NCBI GenBank assembly: GCA_001244265.2
Contig: CDLV01000009.1
Span: 372,001-436,000 of the forward strand
Reading direction: 5' to 3'
From: Microbotryum violaceum
Taxonomy: Eukaryota
Length of the DNA stretch: 64,000 nt
Shown: positions 24,812 to 50,044 of the stretch, in pieces
How the letters are laid out: each line of letters begins with the position of its first letter
Numbering within the stretch: position 1 is the stretch's first letter
The notes under the pieces: model-generated
Databases searched by the model: none
What the model saw: the letters and a program-made list of their open reading frames with translations, nothing else
Told to the model about the DNA's origin: nothing
Program-made: the position numbers and the translations under genes

Positions 24812-25041
24812 GCTGGAGGTGACGAGGTGTGATCGCATGCGAAATGAACCGAAGCGTTGAGTCGGAGAGCGCGCACGAATGGGATCAAGGCGAGTGTGGG
24901 GCACATTAAGTTAGCGAGAAGCCGAAACAGCAGGAAATAGCTGGGCAGAATTTTGAGTCGGGTGTCACGCGCGGTCAGTCGTGTTCGTTGACTCTGCCCA
25001 GCTCACTCCCAGCACCCTACGCGACCTGAGCCCGGTCAGAA

Positions 25042-27439
25042 ATGGGTCAGTCACCTTTGCAGCAAGCAGACCAAGCGTCTGGTCGACTAACACAGCATCA
25101 TGATCCCTCTACAGCGTTCAACTTTGGTGGCTTTGGCGGCAACCTCGGAGGCCAGCCAGGTTCGTACTCGACTCCCGCTCAACATCCGCACCTGCAAGAC
25201 CCTGAACTGACCTCTTCCCTGCGTCCAGCAGCCTCATCCACTCCAGGCTCCACCTCGAGCTCACTGTTTGGCCAGACCTCATCCTCGATTCCAGCATTCG
25301 GCTCGGCCGCACCTGCCGCGAGTGCACCACCCTTCTCGTTCGGTGCACCGGCCGCGACCTCGACACCCGCACCCGGTGCAGCCGCAGCAGCTCCGACCTA
25401 TCTCTTCGGTGGTGGAGCTGCTGCTGGAGGGGGAGGGGGAGGAGGGGTCTTTGGTGGCACCAAGCCTGCCGCAGCCTCAGGAGGAGGTGGCCTCTTTGGC
25501 GGCGCATCCGCGGCCGCCTCCTCGTTCGCTACACCGGCCAAGCCACCTACATTTGGTGCAGCCGGCGGTGGATTCACCTTTGGAGGTGCGGCCAACCCCG
25601 CTCAAGGTAGCACCACTCCCGCCGGCACACCTGCCCCCTTGTCGTTCGGCGCTCCTGCTCCCGCCGCTGCTTCGACGACCCCGGCTTCGGCCCCTACCTT
25701 CTCCTTCGGCGCACCCGCCGCTGCCGCCCCCGCTGCCCCGGCTGGTGGTCTGTTTGGAGGAGCAAAGCGAGAAGGTGATGCTGGAGCGGAGCAAGGAGCC
25801 AAGAAGCACTCCTTTGGTGGATTCGGTGCCTCGGCAGCCCCGGCGGCGGCCACGACGACGACGGCTGCACCAGCTGCCCCTTCGCTGTTTGGTGGTTTTG
25901 GTGCTGCATCGTCTACCGCAACGACGTCTGCGTCTACTCCTGCAGCTTCTTCGACCGCTCCTGCTCCCGCGGGGGGAATGGCGCCCTCTTTCGGAGCAGC
26001 GCCGACATCGACCCCTCTTTCGTTCGGAGCACCCGTTGCCCCGTCTGCCCCATCCTCGGGTGCTGCCACACCTACCGCCCCCGCCACGACCTCAGCACCT
26101 TTGTCCCTCTTTGGTCAACCGGCAGCATCCGCAGCTTCCAGTGCGGCACCCGCGTCGGCGCAACCGGCTGCAGCAGCGGCCCCTTTGAACCTCTTCGGCT
26201 CGGCACCCAAACCCACCGCGACACCTGCTGCGAGTGGGGCCTCAACTTTGTTCGCTGCTCCTGCTGCGGCATCGACGGCACCAGGTCAGTTCCAATTTCT
26301 CAAGATGTGCTTGACTTGCGACTGACGATCATATTGTCTTCATCAACAGCAGCTGCGACGACGAGTGCGCCGACTCTTTCGTTTGAGGCTCCGGCTGCGA
26401 GTACGACACCCGGAGCGACAGGCGCTGCCACTTCCACAGCGCCCACAACCTTATCGTTTGGCGCCAAACCCGCCACTCCAGCCGCGACGCCTCCTGCAAC
26501 CTCCGCCCCAACTCTCTCACTCGCCAAACCCGCCGACGCCTCCTCGGCTCCGACGACTTCGACGGCGAGTGCTCCGGTCCCTTCGATATTGCGCGGCAAG
26601 ACGCTCGATGAGATTGTGAATGGGTGGACGAATGAATTGGAAGAGAGGACCAGGGAATTTGGAGATTTGGCGGGGGAGGTGAGAGAGTGGGATCGCGTGT
26701 TGAGGGAGAATGGAGAGCAGGTGAGAGCGACTTGACTGTGCTTCTGACCCGATGACGGTGCTGATCACTTGTGTGTGCGATGATGCAGATCTCGAACTTG
26801 TACACGTCGATCCTACCTCTCTCACCGCTCCAATCGCAAATAACTACCTCGCTCGACTATGTCGAGTCGCAACAAAAGGATCTCGCGGCCCTCTTGGACT
26901 CCTACGAATCCCAAGTCGGCGAACTCGTCGAACAATCCACCACCGCATCAGGATGGAGAGGCTCGAACGGAGCAGGCGGAGGAGGCCAAGCGGAGAAGGA
27001 ACGTGAACGCGCTTACTCGCTCGCGACGAACCTCTCCAATTCACTCGATACGACTTCGACGTCGTTGACGTCGTTGATCCAGACTCTTAATGCGTTGTCG
27101 CCTTCGACGATGTCGCAGGCTAATCGATTGGGTACGAATAATGGGGAGGAAGACCCTTTGGCGCAGATTGCTGCCATCCTGAACGCGCATTTGGGGTCGT
27201 TGAAATGGATCGAGGGTACGACGGAGGGGTTGAAGAAGAACGTCGCTGAATTGGAAGGTAGGGTGGGCGAAGTTGGGGCTAGGATGGGATCGGGGAGCAA
27301 GAGGGAGCCGAATGGAGCGTCGGTGGCACCGAGTTCATTGCTGAGGAATATGACGCCGAGTCGATTGGCATTGGGGTCGTCGACTGCGACGAGCGCGAGG
27401 GTCGGAAGTCCGTTTGGCGCGTCGAGTGTTAGGAGGTAG
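25042..27439 (+). CDS. NSP1: FG nucleoporin Nsp1/Nup62
   Basis: Long FSFG/GLFG/SLFG repeat region followed by the Nsp1_C coiled coil LRGKTLDEIVNGWTNELE...VREWDRVLRENG...ERERAYSLA...DPLAQIAAILNAHLGSLKWIE. Confidence 0.95.
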
Positions 27440-38697: not shown

Positions 38698-41600
38698 TCA
38701 AGCCATACTCAACGCCCCGAGCGCCTGACTGAGTTTCTCGACCTTCCTCCTTGCCTCCATGATCAACTCTGCCTCCTCCGCCAACTTCTCCTCAACCTTG
38801 TGCAATTGCGTACCTCCCAAAACCAGATTCCCTGCCCCACTTGGCCCCTCCGTTTTCTTCTTCATCTCCTCCAACCCAGGCTTCAACAACTCTACCTTTT
38901 CCACCAACCGTTCGACCCTCGTCGTCAAACCCGGTCCATCCCCTTCCCCTTCTTTGCCCCCCTCAATCTCCCCCTCTAGCCTTTTCAACTCGTCGAACCA
39001 ATTCCTCTCAAACGTCGACACCGAAGGCGCATGCCTATCCATCAACCCTTGCAAAATCCGATCCGTCCTCTTGAGTAAAACCTCCTGCCTCTCTTTAACT
39101 TTGCCAATCCGATCCTTCAAAACCCTTTCTTCATCCCCCGCGTTCAAACTCGTATCCTGAATCAACCCCCCCGCAATAATCTTTCTCAACTCGTGCACTT
39201 TCGTCAATTGCCTCCCCAATTCGGCCAATTGCAATTCGATCCTATTCTGCACCTGATCCGAAGCGTCGACCAAATCGCTCAACCTCGTTCGAAGAGCTTC
39301 AACGGATTTACCGATGAATCTTAATGAGTCGGGGGTGACGGTTTCTAAAGCGCCTTTATTCGCGAGCGATTTGGGGACGACTTGACGAGGCAGAACGTGT
39401 TGGGACGACGAGGCGAGAATTGAAGGTGTTTTGAAAGGTGATTCGAGTAGGGAGAGGTAAGGTGGTGGTTCGTTCGGGAGCCCTTTGCCGCGGTGGGTGG
39501 AGGAGGATAAGGTCGCTGAGGGTAAGAGGGAGGAATCGACTCGGAGTGAAAGCTCGATCGCGACGAGTTGCAATGACGAGGTGACGAGGAGCATCGTGTA
39601 CCCTAGGTAGACGTCATTGATCAGGTCCATACCCACAACAGGGACCGAAAGAGGCGTCGTCGCATCAGTCGTCGTCGAATCATCGGATGCGGCGATGGGG
39701 TTGACGGTCTTGACGATCCATACGACCTGACTGGGTTCGCTCGCCCGTACGGCCTTGTTCATCTCGTGCGCTTGCTTCTCCTCGTCCTCTTGCCCCTTCT
39801 CCAAGCTCGGGTTGAGCGTATCGACGAGGTCATCCAACCACCCTGATAGGACGATACAGTGCGACCCCAAGGGATGTTGGAGATAGATAATATCGACGTA
39901 AAGTGGATCCTTGATGAAGGAAACCCAACCGCCTTCCAATGACATCGAAGCACGTGGTTGTTGTTCGTCCAACTCGTTTACCAAGCCCAAATCAATCGTT
40001 TCGTAAACGCACAAACTCGGTAATTCGTCCAAGGCGTCCTCCCCCTCCCCTCTCAATTCGGCAAACCCCTCCTCCCACCTCGCCTCGACCTTCTCAACCT
40101 CCAAACATAAATCCACCTTCCCATCCAGATAAGCGATCCCGACCACCCCCAACCCAATCTTGACCTCCTTGTCCCCCTCCCTCATTCGATCCTGCGGCTC
40201 ATAATACAAGTACATCATATCCGTCGCCAGAGTTTCCAACTCGCAATCCTCCCCGTGGTCCAATTCGATCGGTTCGGGTTGCATCAAGAACGGACCTTGC
40301 ACTTTGGGCGTTGCGTTGCCGGCACCGAAGCGTGGGGCCGTGAGATGAACGAGATGATCTTTTAGCGAGTCTTGGATCGTAGGGTCGATGTCTATACCTT
40401 CCGATTCGAAATTAGACGAGGAGGCGCCGGCGCGACTGGCTTGTCGGACCAGTTGGTGCACGTATTGGAGTTGCCGAGCGTAGAGGGACGAAAGGTGCGG
40501 TGCGGCCGCAGATTTGGTCGGAGTCGAATTCTTCAGTGTCAGAGCCATCGAGTCCGACGTGGGCTCGGTGACGTTGAGATAGTCGACTTTGGTAGAGACG
40601 AAGGAGGATAGTGCGTGGATGTACGAAGCCGGGAGGGATCTGTGTATTTGGCACAACCGGACCGGACCGGATCAGTTCAATACGATGCCTCCTACGGTCA
40701 GAATCAGCAAGACCTACGCCTTCTTGGGTAGAAAGGGGCAAATGGCGACTACGTCGCCGTTCCTCATCAATCCAAACAGCGTCAAAGGACCCCAGTCGGC
40801 CTGACCCCCACCCAAGCACATGGCCACCGCTTTCTTGGCGTTCTTATCTTCGGCCGAGAAGCCGCGCGGCCCTCCTGATCGCTTGGACGGGGTCGAGCGA
40901 GATGTTTGTTGTGGATGATCCTCGATGAAGGACAATGTTTGTGTGGGCTCTTCGACGTCGGTCGAAATGTCGTATTCGCGTACGGTGGAGTCGATCGTGA
41001 GCACGAGCAATGAGGACGAGTTCGTTCCCCAGGGATGCCATAGAATTTGGGAGACGAGCGGAGAACCGGACAGTCCGTGGTAGTAGTGACCAACCAGAAG
41101 CGATCTGCGAGTGAAGATCGAATTGATCAGCGTGCATCATTGAGGATGCCCCCCCTCAGCTGTGAAGCGGTCCGGTGAGAAAACCTCCCCAATTGTAATT
41201 GTGAAACTGACCTGCACTCGACGGTCGATCCAACAATCGATGACGAGCCTTTCCTCGGCAGGACAACGACAGCTATCGAATGAGCGCCGACGACGGCGAG
41301 AAAAGTGTTGGTCGGGTTGAGCACGAGTTGCTGGATCTCAAAGTTGATCAGGGGCGTGTGGAGCACCTGGGGCCGGGGAAGCGTGGGTCGCGAGCACCCA
41401 CACGTCACGCGGAGAATCTCGTCAGCTAGTCGGGTAAGACTGAACGGATGTGATCGGGGAACTAACCTTGTACTCCCCTCGATCGTGGTGGGTCTCGTTC
41501 GCGTGCGGTCGCTCATGCTGCATTCTCGCTTTGGCCTGAGTCAGACTGGTGATCCTCAACTCGGTGCCCACAGCCACGATCAAGTCCCTGCCCGCGACCA

Positions 41601-42208: not shown

Positions 42209-43367
42209 ATGGCTCGCAAGTCGTCCTCGTCCCAGCCCAACGCTCACCCCGGCACCAAATCGCCCGCTGTGCCCACCGCTTCGACCCCCGTCGCTTCCAG
42301 GGATGTCTTGCAGAGGCTAAACTACCTTTATCAGGCTTCAACTCTGCTGGGCGGGAGCGCAAGCGGCATGCATAAGGAAGGAACAAGTCGGAGCAAGCGC
42401 AAGCACAAGAAAAAGGGGGAAGCTCGCAAGGGGAGTGATACTACCGGCATCGGTGTGGGGACAGCAAGGTTCCTCCCTACGCAGCCTTCAGCTGCAACGG
42501 TTGCAGTGCAAAATGTCGAGCACTCGCACCCACCTCTCACATCGACATCGGAACCGAATCCCAGCCAGCCGACAACGATCGCGACCGCGACGAGCAAAAC
42601 ACGTGACTCGTCCATGGCCAAGCATGCCTCCACAGGCACGGACCAACACACGGTGCGCGATCGCAAACGACGACGACGTTCGGCTAGATCGGAGGAGACC
42701 AGTCCCCAACAGTCGGGAATGGCCTTGCATGCGGTGTCGTGCTCGTTGGCAGGCTTGATGAACCTCGTCGCGCAGAAAGCGACCGTCAAGATGTGAGTCC
42801 CTGGTCGCTGCCTGCTCGATTCCGGTCGTCTCACATTGCGTTCGACGCATGCTCCCCAGGGACCCCTCGGTGAAGAGGACGGTGTGCAAAACCTGTCGAT
42901 CGGTCCTCGTCGCCGGCATGTCCAGTTCAGTCCGGGTCAAACGTGAGCCTTTTCGGTTCTTCAGACTCAGAGAGAGACGCTGTGTCTTCTGACACCTTTC
43001 GTTTCCACTTCTCGTAACCTTCTTTTTGTCTTCAGGTTCTGGTCCGCATGGGCATCGGATCGTGCATACGTGTTTGGCATGTCGTACGACGCGCAAATTA
43101 CCCGCTCCTCCGATCCGAGAAACGTCGCCGGTCCCCATCTCTGCCAACACAACATCAGATATTCTTCCAACCACCTCAACTTCAGTCACCTCGATCGCAT
43201 CGCCTCCTTCGATGGAAGCAATCATCGCGGAACACTCCCCACTGCCACCGTCCCCGCCGCCGGCGAAGAAGAAGAAGATCTTGACGGCCAAGGAAGAGCG
43301 TCGGCTGCGTGAGCCCGTCTTCTTTGAGCGCAAGGATCACGTGACCATTCCAGGCACGCGGGTCTAG
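42209..43367 (+). CDS. RPR2: RNase P subunit Rpr2/Rpp21 family
   Basis: RDVLQRLNYLYQAS...VAQKATVKMDPSVKRTVCKTCRSVLVAG...HTCLACRTTRKLP, with two CxxC zinc-ribbon pairs. Confidence 0.87.
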
Positions 43368-43848
43368 AGCGTTCTTCTCCTTGGCTGGACTTGTTGTGTT
43401 TGTTCACTGTTGTTATCTTTGTATTTCGATTTTTCTCAACCCTGCTACCTCTACGCCTCCGCTCAGCTGCCAAATTTGATGATGGAAGGAGGAGGCCACA
43501 ACCAGTCGACACGTCCGCTAATCAATTTCGAGGGGCTTCGTTCCCAGTAGTGTACGTAAAAAAGGGTTTTAGTCGGCTTGTGTATGTAGCAGAACTTTCT
43601 CTTAACATGCTCCGAACAGTTTGCACAGCACTGTTTGCGCTCCTCGACTGGTTTAGAGCATGGTTCGCACGAGCCGGCGGCATGGCGGCACCGGTGTCGA
43701 GTATTAAGGCAATGAAGGAGGAACGAAAGACGGAGCGACGTGGCAGGGAGCGCGACAGCAGAATGCGATTACCACAATAAGTACATACAACAGCAGATAT
43801 ATACATAAAACTTCCTTCGTTCCTGGAAATACTTTGACATGCTCCATC

Positions 43849-44359
43849 TCAGCTTCGTTTGGCGAGGTCCCGTTTGGTCTTTTCGATCAATCTCCGTAAC
43901 TCGTCGTTCTGCACCTTGATTGGCTGATTCGGCGTAGGGCGAGACTCGTCCTGCGCCAACGGTTTCGGGGTAGGTTTGGAAGGATCATTCTTCTCCGCTT
44001 CGACTGTGGGGAGAACGAGGAGGGATTAGCTACGTGCGTGAAACCACTGAGAATAGGGCCGCCCATGTAGTTGGCCGAACGGCGGCGTCGCAAGCGCAGG
44101 GACTGACTTGTAGCTTGATACAGAGAGTCGTACGCCTTCTCAGTCGCATTCGAGAACGTTCCATGCAGGCTTTCAACTCCTTTGACGAACGTGGGCGAGT
44201 CCAACAACTGCAAGACGTGTGCACACGCAAGGGGAAACGATGAGCAGCTGACTCGGGACGACGAGTGGCGTTCGAGCCATGGACAATGGTCAGTCGTACG
44301 ATACTCACCTTTTTGGTCAGGAGAGCCACGAGTTGCGCTCTTACGAGTGGACCCAGCAT
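43849..44359 (-). CDS. Small hypothetical protein (about 100 aa, 3 exons), possibly mitochondrial
   Basis: Spliced MLGPLVRAQLVALLTKK-LLDSPTFVKGVESLH...YQAT-IEAEKNDPS...ELRRLIEKTKRDLAKRS* with canonical GT-AG introns. Confidence 0.65.
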
Positions 44360-45525
44360 GGCGAAAGAGGTTTGCAAACGGCCGTACGGAAAGCGTTGTG
44401 CGAGTGTTGAGGGTGAGCCTGAGACGCTCCCACGATCGCGAAGCGCCCAGCTCCAAGGGAAGCCAAGGGGTCCGAGCTCAACTTGGGCATTGCGTACTAC
44501 TAGTACTAGCTCGTCTGTTCGAATCCACGCTGAACATGATGCAAGTCGCTTTAGCTCGATTAATGGCCTATCAGTAGAACACTATTCAACTAGCGACGCA
44601 GATTCAGTCTAGTCGGCCTCGAGCGTCGCCGTCTCACCGATTGTATGCAGGAGACTGTGAATTAGGAGCTGAACCCCAATGTTGCAACGGTGCGGCGTTG
44701 AGTCGGTACTACGACCCGGAACTTGCCCCTCGCGCACTTGCTCCTCCCCCACTCATTCGAATCGAGTATGCCTACCAACATTACTCACTGCCTTCAAGCA
44801 AGGCCACCCACCCCTCCCATTATTTAACACATCATTTCAAAGGCGAGGCGAGCCTCAGAATCGTCGGAGCCTGATCTTGGAGTCGGATCTGAAGAGCTCA
44901 GACAGCAGTGGCGGTGTGGGAAGACGCGCATCTGTATGGCCGACTGGTTCGCACGCATATGATTCTCGCTAGTGCATGACACGGCCACGCGTTCAGCAGA
45001 TAGAGTGTATTCATCTGCGGTGGACCGACTCAATGGACTGCCAGCACGAACGAAGTGGGGGCCCGGTCACGTGACCTTGTGGGCGACCAAGGCTCGGACC
45101 CGGCCGCCGGGTCCTCGAATCAGTCGTAATGAATCACTTCGAGCTCCAAGATCGAGACACTCTCCAAGAAACCCTGAGGAAGTTGGTAGTGGGTTTCAAA
45201 AGGGCGCTTATTACGGCCCAATGCAAGATCACTGGTTCGCCCTACTGTCCCCGGGTCTCGAATCTCGTTCATGCCACCGCACTCCGAGTCCATGGCTCAT
45301 TTCCCCATTGGGACAACGGGGCCGAACCGACTCGTCGGCCTAGATGCAAACCCGCCCTACAGCTACTTTGATTGAACAAGATCTACCTAAAAAATTAGGT
45401 ACATCAGGAGGGCATACAAGCTACTAGTACACAAGCTACTTACCTGCACAAGGTTTGTAGTTAATCAAGCATGATAGCCATCGTACCACTGGGGCTTAGC
45501 GCTCGAGCGAATCAGCTCAGCATAG

Positions 45526-46286
45526 TCCCTGTGCTCCTCGCCCGAACAAGACGCCAGTGTCCTCCTTGCTTCCAGTATGTCCGGAAATTTGCCAACCTCG
45601 CTCCCTGTCCCCTCCAACGGCCCCGCCGATCTGAATCTCCAGGCCTTTCGAGTTCGCCGTCCCCTTCTCTCCGCGACGACCTTGTCACCGCCGCCTCTCT
45701 CCGCGCCGAAATCGGCTCCGCGGTTGCCATTGTCCGCTCGGAATTCGACGTCTTGACCGATGCCGTCCAATTCGCCTTCGACGAGGTAGACGGCGAGCTA
45801 GCCAAGTACCGCCAAGCCTTCAACGACTTGCAAGTGGAGCCTGCGATCATCCGCGAAGTCCAAGCTATCGATCGCCATTGTAAAGTATTCTGTCTTGACA
45901 TGGCAGACCGCCAGAACATGTTCGCCGGGAACCTCGATGCCTTCCTCGAGACCGCCAACGCCAGCGACGAGCTCATCGCGGTATGTGTGTCACGGTCCAG
46001 GCCATGATCGAAACTGAAGGACAGCGACGCGAGGAGATGGTCACTTTTCGCGAGTGGGCTCGGCAATACGTTGAACCCATCTTGACTAGTCCCGAATGAC
46101 ATTCGGCGCGGAGGGAGGCGGCGGTGACAAGGTCGTCGCGGAGAGAAGGGGACGGCGAACTCGAAAGGCCTGGAGATTCAGATCGGCGGGGCCGTTGGAG
46201 GGGACAGGGAGCGAGGTTGGCAAATTTCCGGACATACTGGAAGCAAGGAGGACACTGGCGTCTTGTTCGGGCGAGGAGCACAGGGA
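45526..46286. repeat. Long inverted repeat: 185-bp arms (45526-45710 and 46102-46286), one mismatch, 391-bp spacer
   Basis: Manual reverse-complement comparison; the ORF track also shows identical peptides on opposite strands. Confidence 0.97.
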
Positions 46287-46346
46287 AGGTAGAAGAGAGA
46301 GAGGAGATGGAACAGCAGGCGGGGTTGCTCGTGGACGACCTACCAT
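45526..46346. pseudogene. Rearranged gene for a helical hypothetical protein: ATG and exon 1 on minus strand, body on plus strand
   Basis: ATG at 46346(-) opens a 109-nt exon, then a 68-nt GTATGT...CTGAA...CAG intron present in both arms. The in-phase continuation (SLRAEIGSAVAIVRSEFDVLTDAVQFAFDEVDGELAKYRQAF...) exists only on the plus strand. Confidence 0.6.
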
Positions 46347-47573
46347 ATCGAGGGGGGAGGTGTGGTACTCCGGATCGTGCCCAATAACGACAAACTCGAC
46401 TACCGTGTCCGGCGTACGAAAGGGAATGATATAACACTGGTCTAAATAGCTGGGAGCTCAAAGTGAATAATTGAAGAACCTTTGGCGCGCAATGCCAGCC
46501 CGCGTGAGCGCACCGAAGCTTAGTGAGATTCTTCATACGATGGGCGATCGATGCACGGAGTTGTTTACCACCGATCGGCCGCCATCATATGTGCTCTCAG
46601 ACCCTGGGGTGTCGAGAGTCGAGATCGCTGGCGAGCGACGTGTCACATGGGCAGAAGCCCAGACCGCAAGGTACGCCTAGAACGACCGAATCGGATTCGA
46701 GGTTGCTCCGACCTGCGAAGTCCGGTGGTAACTCGTCGCACCCCTGCATAATGCTTCACGGGTCCCCGCCATCATCGTCCGTCGACCCCAATGCCCTCTG
46801 GACTAGATATCAAGATTCTTCGTAATTGTCGGTGACGAGGGCCAACTCAAATTCGGACCAGGGCTCAGGGTTTTGCGACGGGTACGGCTGCGGACGTCCG
46901 CTGGAAACACAAGTTCGATCACGCTCAAGTTCGCGCGTGCCGGCATAGGACGTAAATCGCAAGTTTTAGGATACCTGTGGTGTCTTGAGTCGCAAGGTAA
47001 TAAGGTGGCAGCATGTCATCGACCCCAGAACACCTCTCAGGACCATGTATGGCGCCTTGGACCCGATTGAAAGCCGCGGGCCAGCGCTCTTCACCCTTGG
47101 TTACCTCCTGTTCCTCTCAATCCTAGCTTGATCCATGGCGCTACGAGCATGCGGACCACAGTCGACCTCATGCAGACTAACATTCTTGGTTCTTTTGGAC
47201 GCCTACGTCTTCGCATTATCCGCCACAGGCTATGCCCCTCCTAAATGAGACCTCCTCGGCAGTAACGCCACACTGGCGCGAATGGGGTCTGTCACCTACG
47301 CTTCGGCATCCATTCGACGATCACAGGTCTGGCGATGGAGGTCCTCCACAACATTTACGGGAGCAACACCCCATTATCTCATAGTGCGGGGGAAAGAAGA
47401 ATGTATTAATCGGTAAAGTACTCCTATACTGTGCCATTATCTTGACATTGGTTGCACGATAACAGCAGAAGCATCAACACATTGTATCCGATTACAGGCG
47501 ATAGAGTTGGGATGTTTAAATTTCTTTCATTCGAACGGCAATGTCGAACCCCTATTCTAATAGCGCTCCCTCC

Positions 47574-50044
47574 TCATTCCTTCGGCTCCTTCCCTGTTTC
47601 CCTCACAACGGGTTCGTCCTTGTCGGTATTCTTCTTCTTCGACTTGGTCGAGTTCTTCTCCTTCGGTGTTGTTGCGGTCGAAGCTTCGGATTCGTCGCAA
47701 CCCAACGCCTCTTTCACTTTATCTTTCCCTGCTACAAGAGCAAGCCACGGGAAACAAAAAAACGAGTCAATTCCATCATTCTAACGAGTTCTTCATCGAC
47801 GAGGTAGCCAACGTTTCACACCATTCCATAGGTCACCCAACAGCGACTCGCCGTCTTCCTTGCCCTTCGTGTCGGCGGTCTCAGGGGTTGGTTTGTGTGA
47901 GGTTGCTTGGGGCGGTGGTGTTGTTGAGGTGGAGGGCTTGGCCGCGGCTTCATCGAGAGGTTTTGAGGGATCGTTTTCATCCATTGTCGACCACCACTTT
48001 CCCGACACTGCGAAAGGGGAACCGTACACAAGTATCAGCACATCAATTATCCACGAGTGCGATCCACAGCCCACTCGGAAACGTACCGGCATCGGATGGT
48101 GGGGGTTTGGCTTGGTGCGTAAAGCCAGGCGAGTTCTCGTCGGGCAGCTTGGAGGCCTTTTTGGATGAGGTAGACTGGGCCGATGCGGCTTGGGACTCGG
48201 TCGAGCCTCCGTCGTTGGATGACGGTGGCGCCGACGACGGCGAATATGACGACGATCCGGGAGATTCAGTTTCGGAAACGTACATCTGCAAGATACGTCG
48301 TTGGGCCGGAGTCAAAGTGCTGTAGGGAGGTAGGGAGGATTCAGTCAGGACATCCGTTTGCCTGTCATAAACATAGCTCAAACTCGAAGCACTTACCGAG
48401 GCATTTGAACTCCGAACCTGACCACAAGATCACCATATTCGTCCTTGTACAGCTTCTTAACACCTCGGCCTCGCAGGACCATCTCCTCGCCGGGCTGCGT
48501 ACCCTGAGGCACCTTGACCTCCACTTCCCGATCAAGCGTCGCGACCCTTGCTCGACCACCCAAGATGGCCGTGTAGAAGGGCACGCCAACGTCTTGGTAG
48601 AGGTTCGAGCCCTGGCGCTGGAAGGTTTTGCTGGGCAGGACCGAAACTCGGACGTAGAGGTCTCCAACTCGACCCTTGCCTCCGAGAGGGGCATCGCCCT
48701 GGCCGTCGATTCGAATCTTCATTCCATCGTCGACACCAGGCGGGATGCGCACCTCAACTGACTTGCGCTCGCGCACCTTGCCGACGCCGTTGCAAGTGCC
48801 GCAGCCCGAGCCGTACGGTGTGGTCGAGCCCGAACCGCCGCAGACGTTGCAAGTCGACGCCATTTGGAAGCCGGACTGGATCGTAAATGTCCTCGTCCCG
48901 CTTCCTCCACACGCTCGGCAGCTCGATTTCTGTGCTCCTTCCTTCAAGCCGGATCCCTTGCAAGTCCCGCAGTCGACCACCGGGGAGATGGTAACGGTCT
49001 TGCTCGTGCCCTTGGCCGCTTCGACGAAAGGCAGCGTGATGCCGATCTCGATGTCTTCACCCGGTTGCATCCCTTGACCCGGTCGGGCTGAACCACCCCT
49101 TCCACCACCGAATGCGCCGAACAATGACTCGAAGATGTCGGGTCCAGCTCCACCGGCCCCACCGGTGGCCCCTCCGCCGAAGAAGTCGGAGAACCCAGCA
49201 CCCCCGAACGAGGACGAGGCGCGGGCGTACGCATCCGAGTCAAAGCCTTGCTGCGTCGATGCAGGTCCAAAGCGATCGAAATCGGCACGTTTCTTTTCGT
49301 CAGATAGGATCTGCGCGCAGCGAAATTAATTGCGATTGTCAGCTCCAGCGCCAGCCTCACCGAGCAGGGGGACACCATCTCAGGCGAAGGTCTCACATCG
49401 TATGCTTCCTGGATCTCTACAAATCTCTCTTTGGCACCCTTGTCCTTGTTGGTATCAGGATGGAACTTTTTGGCGAGCTGCGAGATCAAAAACAGGATGT
49501 AGGGTGCCATCGTCAGCTGAGGGAAGCCCGTAGAAGGTCAAGGAAAGAGCTTCGCGCTCCGCCGTACCTGGTAGTAGGCTCGCTTGATCTCGCTCGCGGA
49601 TGCATCCTTGGCCACACCAATCGCCTTGTACGGGTCTTGGACGAGCGAGGTCGATGAAGCATGGAACGTGCGCTGTGGGGAAGGCAGGCAGTAGGCGGCG
49701 TCAGCGAGCGGCCGGCCATGACATAACGATCGCAGTAACGGCCGGGTGGGCACGCAGCACACAGCACGTACCTGATGTAGTTTGTTCCCAGCCCGACGGC
49801 TCAAAGCCGATGAGACCAGATTCCATCCAAGTCGTTGACGAGGTGCAGCGGCGGTACTTAGTCGGCGGGTTGACGACGGTGCCTTTGATGCGACCGCGAA
49901 TGAGCGTTGCGAAGGGCCGTCCCTGCTCCCGCTGGCGACCGGTGATGCAGTGACTGCAGACGAGACCGTGCGACAGACGCAGGGTGATATGCCACTGCCA
50001 TTCAGGAGGCTCAGCAGCGAAGGTGTACGCGCTAGGGGCGCCAT
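47574..50044 (-). CDS. MDJ1: Mitochondrial type I DnaJ co-chaperone
   Basis: Presequence-like N-terminus, J domain (DPYKAIGV...EIKRAYYQLAKKFHPD), G/F region, four CxxCxGxG repeats, DnaJ C-terminal domain. Confidence 0.94.

What the first reader, a model, noticed from the sequence alone, without database searches (positions are those of the whole stretch)
45526..46440. Gene split across an invertible-looking cassette: flipping the spacer between 185-bp inverted repeats rebuilds a continuous gene
Seen: arms 45526-45710 and 46102-46286 differ at one base and each carries the same 68-nt intron-like segment. Only the right arm is attached to an ATG (46346, minus strand) with a TATA-like sequence near 46430. 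Only the left arm continues in phase into a protein-like helical ORF in the spacer. Splicing the 109-nt first exon (phase 1) lands exactly in that frame. As assembled, the minus product runs into antisense spacer sequence (..SLRAECHSGL..); after inversion it reads ..SLRAEIGSAVAIVRSEF.. (157 aa). Inference: either an intragenic on/off inversion switch, analogous to bacterial invertons and the inversion-type mating-type switch of methylotrophic yeasts, or a recent one-off inversion with a duplicated breakpoint. No recombinase gene is visible in the window.
Basis: partly seen in the sequence, partly recalled or inferred. Interest (0 to 1): 0.8.

Follow-up and report, generated by a model that had tools for sequence, protein, structure and literature searches.

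The report
Fixed inverted duplication around orphan ORF
A real 185-base inverted duplication brackets the tail of a small, unannotated, protein-coding-looking gene in the anther-smut fungus Microbotryum lychnidis-dioicae, and it looks like the scar of a single past rearrangement, not a working on/off DNA switch.

Summary
The repeat is real. Arms 45526-45710 and 46102-46286 match at 184 of 185 bases around a 391-nt spacer, and this is the only long inverted pair in the window. All junctions, and the one arm mismatch, recur in contigs of four public runs. The host is Microbotryum lychnidis-dioicae.

The spacer holds the most coding-like frame of the 4.4-kb neighbourhood. It has no homologue, family or annotation.

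Two facts were missed. As assembled, the + strand already carries an open 178-codon frame from ATG 45471, read through the unspliced left arm. And the ATG at 46346 lies inside a dispersed repeat fragment.

Nothing supports programmed switching. No recombinase appeared among the long ORFs scanned. The k-mer contigs cannot show spacer orientation, because the arm is longer than their overlaps.

Best reading: a fixed, one-off rearrangement at a young orphan gene, either a template-switch inverted duplication or a micro-inversion with a duplicated breakpoint. Passive side effects would be rare homologous flips and a 185-bp dsRNA stem in read-through transcripts. Interest is low to moderate.

The parts
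45526..45710 (.). Left arm of the inverted repeat (185 nt). It continues without a break into the coding-like spacer frame.
   Evidence: The arm contig 45526-45697 has depth 316 in run X1, against 211-228 for the flanks.
46102..46286 (.). Right arm of the inverted repeat (185 nt, 184 of 185 identical to the left arm; mismatch at 46114 against 45698).
   Evidence: The junction contigs 46257-46331 (X1, X4) and 46115-46343 (X20) tie it to the right flank.
45711..46101 (+). Unique 391-nt spacer: the 3' part of a coding-like orphan ORF on the + strand.
   Evidence: Single-copy depth 225.7 in X1.
45669..45980 (+). Best coding-potential segment (104 codons, LRDDLV...SDELIA). It starts 42 nt inside the left arm.
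   Evidence: 31.0 bits, top of all stop-free segments in 43300-47700. 0 of 1000 dinucleotide shuffles reach it. GC1/2/3 = 0.66/0.39/0.74.
45989..46099 (+). Second coding-like piece, in another frame (VTVQAMIETEGQRREEMVTFREWARQYVEPILTSPE). Its TGA at 46097-46099 lies 2 nt before the right arm.
   Evidence: 8.9 bits over 36 codons. Coordinates read.
45981..46024 (+). Either a 44-nt GTATGT..ACAG intron (short for this genome) or a frameshift site in a GTATGTGTGT run. It joins the two coding-like frames.
   Evidence: Read. Removing it gives 173 aa after the flip. The three introns of the neighbouring gene MVLG_03787 are 100, 107 and 78 nt.
45471..46007 (+). The 178-codon ORF open in the assembled orientation, from ATG 45471 through the unspliced left arm.
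   Evidence: The N-terminal 58 codons score -0.12 bits per codon, which is not coding-like.
46238..46346 (-).
   Evidence: It scores -0.18 bits per codon with GC3 0.42. Its first 15 codons lie in the dispersed repeat.
46170..46237 (-). 68-nt intron-like segment in the right arm. The twin in the left arm is 45575-45642 on +.
   Evidence: GTATGT...CTCCAG. No RNA evidence is available.
46302..46419 (.). Fragment of a dispersed, multi-copy repeat, 16 nt outside the right arm. It holds ATG 46346 and the sequence upstream of it.
   Evidence: Summed depth in bin 46318-46418 is 2320 against about 225 (X1), 715 against 72 (X4) and 20 against 5.4 (X13). Several single-copy-depth contigs match 35-60 nt here at 1-3 differences and then run on into unlike sequence (tables 7 and 8).
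46092..46106 (.). Small palindrome CCGAATG-a-CATTCGG spanning the spacer/right-arm junction. It is a possible microhomology for a template switch.
   Evidence: Read. This is inference only.
45661..45720 (+). Two 30-nt tandem units (73% alike) spanning the left-arm/spacer junction, encoding SLRDDLVTAA / SLRAEIGSAV. This argues that the junction is the ancestral, unbroken one.
   Evidence: (family D1).

Best explanation
This is a real, fixed, single-locus rearrangement scar in Microbotryum lychnidis-dioicae.

One event, shortly before the common ancestor of the sampled strains, left two inverted copies of a 185-bp piece of the 5' part of a small lineage-restricted gene. That piece holds non-coding-looking sequence, a 68-nt intron-like segment and about 14-22 codons. 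The two copies now sit on either side of the gene's last 391 bp.

Two one-step origins give exactly this structure, and I cannot separate them without an outgroup.
(a) A replication template switch, or fold-back repair, pasted an inverted copy of the 5' piece just behind the stop codon of a + strand gene. The 178-codon + ORF was left intact.
(b) A 576-bp micro-inversion with a staggered, and therefore duplicated, breakpoint split a minus-strand gene that started at ATG 46346.

Neither origin makes it a programmed switch. Its present properties are passive and inferred, not shown:
- Rare homologous recombination between the arms can flip the spacer.
- Any transcript crossing both arms folds into a 185-bp double-stranded stem. 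This fungus has the RNAi machinery to process such a stem.
For: Structure is real and shared:
- The repeat is confirmed.
- Contigs of X1 and X4 cover all four junctions. X13 and X20 cover three each, including both inner junctions. The four runs carry four coded organism labels and four studies.
- The same 477-nt contig 45668-46144, with 0 differences, is in X1, X4 and X13. Contig ends at 45668, 46115 and 46144 mark the same arm mismatch in all four runs.

Single locus, not a mobile family:
- In X1 the spacer has depth 225.7 and the arm contig 316, against 211-228 for the flanks.
- There is no other copy in the window.
- No target-site duplication is seen: the flanks read ...CAGCATAG and AGGTAGAA....

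Age:
- The arms differ at 1 of 185 bases (0.5%).
- Run X20 differs from the window at 6 listed places in the laid stretch.
- An event just before the strains' common ancestor therefore needs no ongoing homogenisation.

The spacer is coding sequence:
- It scores 31.0 bits, against shuffles of 8.6 +/- 2.1 (maximum 20.6; 0 of 1000 reach it). It is in the top 11% of 140 tiles of this gene-dense window.
- Per codon it scores 0.26-0.30, against 0.178 +/- 0.099 for training exons and an off-frame maximum of 0.159.
- The coding signal and a 10-codon tandem motif cross the left-arm/spacer junction.

Nothing points to a switch:
- No recombinase or transposase domain in the 14 long ORFs scanned. The neighbours are housekeeping genes: Nup82, Nsp1, DnaJ, MDM31/32, amidase and lipase.

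Passive dsRNA potential:
- The RNA fold is -589 kcal/mol, against -318 +/- 8.6 for shuffles, z = -31.5.
- Dicer, two Argonautes and RdRP are present and expressed in this species (PMC4469406, passages read).
Against: - The orientation of the spacer, and whether both orientations coexist, was not measurable. Switching is therefore unsupported, not refuted.
That favours a real minus-strand gene, origin (b), over pure accident.
- Neither candidate N-terminus looks coding: -0.18 and -0.12 bits per codon. The true start of the gene is unknown.
- No homologue, family, annotation or RNA evidence shows that the ORF is expressed.
- The zero-hit protein searches did not even return the species' own copy. 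They say only that the ORF is unannotated, not that relatives lack it.
- The arm depth ratio is about 1.4-1.5 in X1, not 2. It is irregular in X4 (86.5 for the arm, 142.7 for the spacer, 26-72 for the flanks).
Confidence: 0.65

Rival explanations
1. Reversible intragenic inversion switch. Recombination between the arms flips the 391-bp spacer. This toggles between a spliced 157-aa minus-strand product and the present state.
For: The geometry fits. Inverted arms bracket the gene's 3' part, and the flip restores one continuous frame of 157 aa. The arms are kept at 184 of 185. The spacer is genuinely coding-like.
Against: - No recombinase or transposase domain among the 14 long ORFs scanned.
- Exon 1 is not coding-like, and its ATG lies in a dispersed repeat fragment.
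- The 'off' state has its own open 178-codon frame.
- The same inner-edge mismatch is kept in all four runs. Arm identity is explained by youth alone.
- I listed no report of such a switch in Microbotryum: searched 'Microbotryum' + 'inverted repeat', found 44 papers and listed 15, none on this by title.
- From recall: the known fungal flip/flop systems use kilobase-scale repeats and regulated recombination.
Confidence: 0.04
2. The spacer is mis-oriented in the assembly. The true genome has the flipped orientation: an intact minus-strand gene (ATG 46346, 68-nt intron, 157 or 173 aa) followed by an inverted copy of its own 5' piece.
For: - A near-perfect 185-nt inverted repeat leaves spacer orientation undetermined for any data shorter than arm plus flanks. 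All k-mer contigs break at the arms.
- The flipped order gives a conventional spliced gene.
Against: - From passages read, the published assembly of this species used 454 reads of three libraries with Newbler. From recall, such reads are about 400 nt long and could span one arm. I do not know which assembly the window comes from.
- Exon 1 scores as non-coding.
Confidence: 0.1
3. Hairpin-RNA (siRNA-producing) locus. The inverted duplication is kept because its transcript forms a 185-bp dsRNA that is diced into small RNAs, silencing the orphan gene itself or related sequence.
For: A very stable stem, z = -31.5. The RNAi core genes are present and expressed in this species (PMC4469406). Template switching is known to create hairpin RNA genes (PMC8794818 and 10.1101/2023.04.19.537475; abstracts seen).
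Against: There is no RNA or small-RNA evidence. No RNA holder was listed, and the one 'RNA?' run looks like thin, even DNA coverage. There is no Rfam match. The arm sequence is single-locus, so it has no obvious trans target.
Confidence: 0.08
4. Non-autonomous DNA transposon (a foldback or MITE-like element with 185-bp terminal inverted repeats) that captured a gene fragment.
For: Terminal inverted repeats with a short internal segment. TIR elements make up 12% of transposable-element sequence in this genome (PMC4469406). A dispersed repeat fragment lies 16 nt away.
Against: - Arm and spacer are at single-locus depth.
- There is no target-site duplication at 45525/46287.
- Coding signal and a tandem motif run across the arm/spacer boundary. 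The 'terminal repeat' is therefore part of the gene.
Confidence: 0.02

Closest known systems
Inverted duplications at inversion breakpoints made by staggered breaks (Drosophila; Ranz et al. 2007, PMC1885836; listing and abstract seen)
   Same: An inverted segment is flanked by inverted copies of sequence that was single-copy before the event. No transposon or recombinase is needed, and the result is fixed.
   Different: Here the inverted segment would be only 391 bp and lies within one small gene. The ancestral state is not available to prove an inversion took place.
Replication template-switch mutations that create or flip inverted repeats (PMC5453318, PMC8794818; spacer inversion and protein change in the Saccharomyces lineage, PMC8604942; abstracts seen)
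   Same: A reverse-complement copy of nearby sequence appears in one step, creating a perfect stem. A short palindrome sits at the junction (46092-46106).
   Different: From recall, described events are mostly tens of bases long. This copy is 185 nt. No outgroup is available to reconstruct the four switch points.
Bacterial intragenic invertons (10.1101/2023.03.11.532203; abstract seen)
   Same: Inverted repeats lie inside or around a coding region, so flipping recodes the product.
   Different: Those are enzyme-mediated, have short repeats, and both orientations are seen in reads. Here no invertase was found, the arms are long, the host is a eukaryote, and orientation could not be measured.
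Flip/flop mating-type switching of Ogataea polymorpha (PMC5720833, PMC5701183) and the Saccharomyces chromosome XIV flip/flop polymorphism (PMC9731477); abstracts seen
   Same: Fungal chromosomal inversion by recombination between inverted repeats.
   Different: Those invert 19-24 kb carrying whole genes. The O. polymorpha system is induced by nutrient signals and acts through position relative to the centromere. This unit is 761 bp, intragenic, and shows no sign of regulation.

Membership tests
Programmed DNA inversion switch (inverton, flip/flop) | Inverted repeats flanking the invertible segment | tested here: met
   185-nt arms, 184 of 185 identical, with a 391-nt spacer.
Programmed DNA inversion switch (inverton, flip/flop) | Both orientations coexist within a population or among close strains | tested here: inconclusive
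   Four runs were laid, but all are k-mer contigs that break at the arms. A flip creates no new junction shorter than the arm.
Programmed DNA inversion switch (inverton, flip/flop) | A dedicated recombinase or a regulated break/recombination pathway linked to the locus | tested here: not met
   No recombinase, integrase or transposase domain in 14 of the 16 ORFs of 250 aa or more; the other two are Nup82. Shorter or intron-split genes, and the rest of the genome, were not scanned.
Programmed DNA inversion switch (inverton, flip/flop) | Each orientation gives a defined functional output | tested here: inconclusive
   The flip gives a 157-aa frame, and the assembled state gives a 178-codon + frame. 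No homologue or RNA supports either.
Template-switch or staggered-break inverted duplication (one-off rearrangement) | The duplicated segment is single-copy elsewhere, and the two copies are adjacent and inverted | tested here: met
   Depths. No other copy in the window.
Template-switch or staggered-break inverted duplication (one-off rearrangement) | An ancestral un-duplicated state exists in an outgroup | not testable with these tools
   No eukaryote genome is held. Protein orthologues of the neighbouring gene exist in M. saponariae and M. intermedium.
TIR DNA transposon / MITE | Multiple genomic copies and a target-site duplication | tested here: not met
   Single-locus depth. The flanks CAGCATAG and AGGTAGAA show no duplication.
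Hairpin-RNA / siRNA locus | A transcript across both arms and small RNAs from the stem | not testable with these tools
   Only the fold could be computed. No RNA holder was listed.

The most novel reading that the evidence does not exclude
A recombinase-free, homologous-recombination-driven intragenic inverton in a basidiomycete. Flipping the 391-bp tail between the 185-bp arms would toggle a young orphan gene between a spliced 157-aa minus-strand product and a 178-aa plus-strand product. The same arms would make any read-through RNA an RNAi trigger, coupling DNA orientation to silencing.
Probability: 0.04. Interest if true: 0.85.

Novelty: new member of a known kind. Interest (0 to 1): 0.25.

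Why it matters
If it is a scar, as I think, its value is modest. It would be a clean natural example, in a fungus, of a small inverted duplication reshaping a young gene. It also flags an unannotated coding-like ORF in M. lychnidis-dioicae.

It is also a caution for assemblies. The orientation of a short spacer between near-perfect inverted repeats is not determined by short-read data.

If both orientations turned out to coexist at appreciable frequency, it would be the first intragenic inversion switch in a fungus. That would be a notable finding, and the test is cheap: PCR or long reads.

Tried and rejected
- **Whole-genome search:** no genome is held for this window.
- **Homology for the spacer ORF:** the word-index search gave 0 hits from 12 candidates. 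Exhaustive phmmer over 1.84 billion representatives gave 0 hits. Pfam gave 0.
- **Homology for the minus ORF holding exon 1 (46089-46457):** 0 hits from 59 candidates. Pfam gave only a sub-threshold SMN_YG-box match, E = 0.18, which I dismiss.
- **RNA evidence:** no RNA holder was listed. Run X20, labelled 'RNA?' as a guess, gave thin coverage at depth about 3-5 over 25 of 30 bins including intergenic sequence. I read this as DNA and draw nothing on expression from it.
- **Spacer orientation from contigs:** impossible, because contigs end at the arm edges.
- **Rfam (E up to 1) on 44000-48000 and ARAGORN on the whole window:** nothing.
- **Structure:** the single-sequence AlphaFold2 model of the 178-aa ORF was poor, with mean pLDDT 55.8 and pTM 0.34. 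It shows two long helices at 65-120 and 124-176. It is too weak for a fold search, so none was run.
- **Transposon reading:** rejected on copy number and the lack of a target-site duplication.
- **RIP-like origin of the arm mismatch:** the T/C site at 45698 is not in a TCG context (read). That TCG is the target of the RIP-like process in this fungus is my recollection.
- **Earlier findings of this scan:** none for this genome or these sequences. The word search returned only bacterial and phage inversion systems, which do not bear on this locus.
- **Supplements of PMC4469406** (TE consensus library, gene tables) are closed. They might name the dispersed repeat at 46302-46419, or show RNA-seq cover here.
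Full report
**1. The observation**

The arms are 45526-45710 and 46102-46286: 185 nt, 99% complementary, 391 nt apart. The single mismatch is at 45698 (T) against 46114, 13 nt from the inner edge.

It is the only inverted pair of 40 nt or more in the 64-kb window. A sensitive blastn finds no other copy of arm, spacer or flanks in the window.

- The minus-strand ATG at 46346 opens a 109-nt phase-1 exon.
- A 68-nt GTATGT...CTCCAG segment follows, at 46237-46170. Its twin in the left arm is 45575-45642.
- As assembled, the spliced product ends after 101 aa in antisense spacer.
- With the spacer flipped it runs to 157 aa.

**2.

First, the left arm does have a start codon. ATG 45471 is in frame with the unspliced left arm and the spacer frame. 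The assembled + strand therefore already carries an open 178-codon ORF, 45471-46007. Only in the spliced frame is the left arm closed, by TAG at 45523-45525 directly before it.

Second, the ATG at 46346 and the sequence upstream of it lie in a dispersed repeat:
- In the laid contigs, bin 46318-46418 has summed depth 2320 against about 225 in X1, 715 against 72 in X4 and 20 against 5.4 in X13.
- Several contigs of ordinary single-copy depth match 35-60 nt within 46302-46419, with 1-3 differences, and then run on into unrelated sequence.

Third, an intron-like GTRNGT..YAG segment occurs in 13.8% of random 185-nt pieces of this window. Combined with a roughly one-in-four chance of an in-frame ATG before a stop (my estimate), the flip-and-splice model is suggestive but not compelling.

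**3. Is the repeat real DNA?**

Yes. I laid contigs of four public runs with four coded organism labels from four studies.
- X1 and X4 each cover left flank/arm, arm/spacer at both ends, and arm/right flank. X13 and X20, at about 5x depth or less, each cover three of these four junctions: X13 lacks arm/right flank and X20 lacks left flank/arm.
- An identical 477-nt contig 45668-46144, with 0 differences, occurs in X1, X4 and X13.
- In X20, pieces starting at 45668 and 46115 and one ending at 46144 mark the same arm mismatch.
- In X1 the collapsed arm contig has depth 316, against 211-228 for the flanks and 225.7 for the spacer. That is roughly two copies of the arm and one of everything else, though the ratio is 1.4-1.5, not 2. 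X4 depths are irregular.

What these data cannot show is spacer orientation. A flip between arms longer than the contig word creates no new junction, and all contigs stop at the arm edges.

**4. Host and setting**

The 657-aa ORF at 38701-40671 (-) is 100% identical over the queried 301 residues to MVLG_03787 of Microbotryum lychnidis-dioicae p1A1 Lamole. Its orthologues are 94% identical in M. saponariae and 82% in M. intermedium.

That gene maps to 42054-38701 with three introns of 100, 107 and 78 nt.

The window is ordinary gene-dense sequence. It holds a Nup82-like gene, Nsp1-like, class-3 lipase, amidase, MDM31/32 and DnaJ genes. None of the 14 long ORFs scanned shows a recombinase or transposase domain. 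No tRNA or Rfam family lies near the repeat.

**5. Is there a gene?**

The + frame 45669-45980 is the best coding-potential segment in 43300-47700.
- It scores 31.0 bits, or 0.26-0.30 bits per codon. Training exons score 0.178 +/- 0.099, and no off-frame chunk exceeds 0.159.
- GC1/2/3 is 0.66/0.39/0.74.
- 0 of 1000 dinucleotide shuffles reach it. It sits in the top 11% of 140 tiles of the window.

A second coding-like piece, 45989-46096 (8.9 bits over 36 codons), continues in another frame. It ends at TGA 46097-46099, two bases before the right arm. The two pieces are joined either by a 44-nt GT..AG segment, which is short beside the 78-107-nt introns seen here, or by a frameshift in a GTATGTGTGT run.

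The coding signal starts 42 nt inside the arm. A 30-nt tandem unit encoding SLRDDLVTAA / SLRAEIGSAV spans the left-arm/spacer junction, so that junction is the ancestral one.

Neither proposed N-terminus looks coding. The minus-strand exon 1 scores -0.18 bits per codon. The + strand stretch from ATG 45471 scores -0.12.

The ORF has no homologue in 1.84 billion representatives or in the word-index search. It has no Pfam family, and the minus ORF carrying exon 1 has none either.

Not even a self-hit came back. That means only that nobody has annotated it. According to passages read, the published annotation of this species predicted ORFs of at least 600 nt from transcripts. A 537-nt ORF could therefore be missed.

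A single-sequence AlphaFold2 model is weak (pLDDT 55.8). It suggests a two-helix hairpin.

**6. What it most likely is**

I read it as a fixed rearrangement scar at a young orphan gene.

The arms differ by 0.5%. The most divergent laid run differs from the window at 6 listed places in 3 kb. All four runs share the same mismatch. An event just before the strains' common ancestor therefore explains the near-identity without any ongoing homogenisation.

Two single-step origins produce this exact structure.
- (a) Template switch or fold-back repair copies 185 nt of the gene's 5' part in reverse, just behind the stop codon of a + strand gene. The palindrome CCGAATG-a-CATTCGG across the right inner junction may be the microhomology (inference). 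The kind of event is described in PMC5453318, PMC8794818 and PMC8604942 (abstracts).
- (b) A micro-inversion with a staggered, duplicated breakpoint, as described for Drosophila inversions (PMC1885836; abstract), splits a minus-strand gene that began at ATG 46346.

I hold them about equal. An outgroup would decide.

**7. Rivals**

*Programmed switch (0.04).* It lacks every feature beyond the geometry. The two alternatives below account for the same geometry.

*Mis-oriented spacer in the assembly (0.10).* This cannot be excluded, because orientation is invisible to short data.

*Functional hairpin-RNA locus (0.08).* It is physically possible. The fold is -589 kcal/mol with z = -31.5, and Dicer, two Argonautes and RdRP are present and expressed in this species (PMC4469406). 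There are no RNA data.

*Transposon with 185-bp terminal repeats (0.02).* It fails on copy number and on the missing target-site duplication.

**8. Comparison and verdict**

It works, if at all, like any pair of inverted repeats: as a passive substrate for homologous flipping.

It is not a demonstrated member of the inverton or flip/flop class (10.1101/2023.03.11.532203; PMC5720833, PMC9731477). The recombinase or regulation criterion was not met in what I could scan, and the two-orientation criterion was untestable.

A search for 'Microbotryum' with 'inverted repeat' found 44 papers and listed 15. None addresses such a locus by title.

It is a new instance of a known kind of small structural mutation. 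Interest is 0.25. The cheap decisive tests are orientation-specific PCR or long reads, synteny with sister species, and mapping of existing stranded RNA-seq.

Noticed in passing
window 46302-46419: Fragment of a dispersed, multi-copy repeat (about 10x summed contig depth in two runs). Other genomic copies match sub-segments at 1-3 differences and then diverge.
   Followed up: partly
window 45384-45440: Run X4 carries a 57-bp deletion between two TACCT words (5-nt microhomology), about 30 nt upstream of ATG 45471. This is a strain-level indel in the putative 5' region of the + strand ORF (table 5).
   Followed up: no
window 45981-46024: A GTATGTGTGT run where the coding-like signal changes frame. 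It is either an unusually short 44-nt intron or a frameshift that truncates the ORF at TGA 46005-46007.
   Followed up: partly
window 46092-46106: 15-nt palindrome CCGAATG-a-CATTCGG exactly across the spacer/right-arm junction. It may be the microhomology of the event that made the repeat.
   Followed up: no
window 45512-46177 (-): A 221-codon open frame antisense to the coding-like ORF. Its codon score of -0.05 bits per codon suggests it is only the usual antisense shadow of a GC3-rich coding frame.
   Followed up: partly
window 25030-26735 (+): Three overlapping long open frames in all three + frames. One ends in an Nsp1-like C-terminal domain. The skewed per-position GC (for example 0.84 at codon position 1 in one frame) suggests a low-complexity FG-repeat nucleoporin.
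   Followed up: no
window 43858-44219 (-): Coding-like minus-strand segments (13-15 bits) of an unidentified neighbouring gene to the left of the repeat. It was not characterised.
   Followed up: no
window 46351: One-base difference in the G run at 46350-46356, seen in contigs of three runs. It probably comes from paralogous copies of the dispersed repeat, not from this locus (table 4).
   Followed up: no
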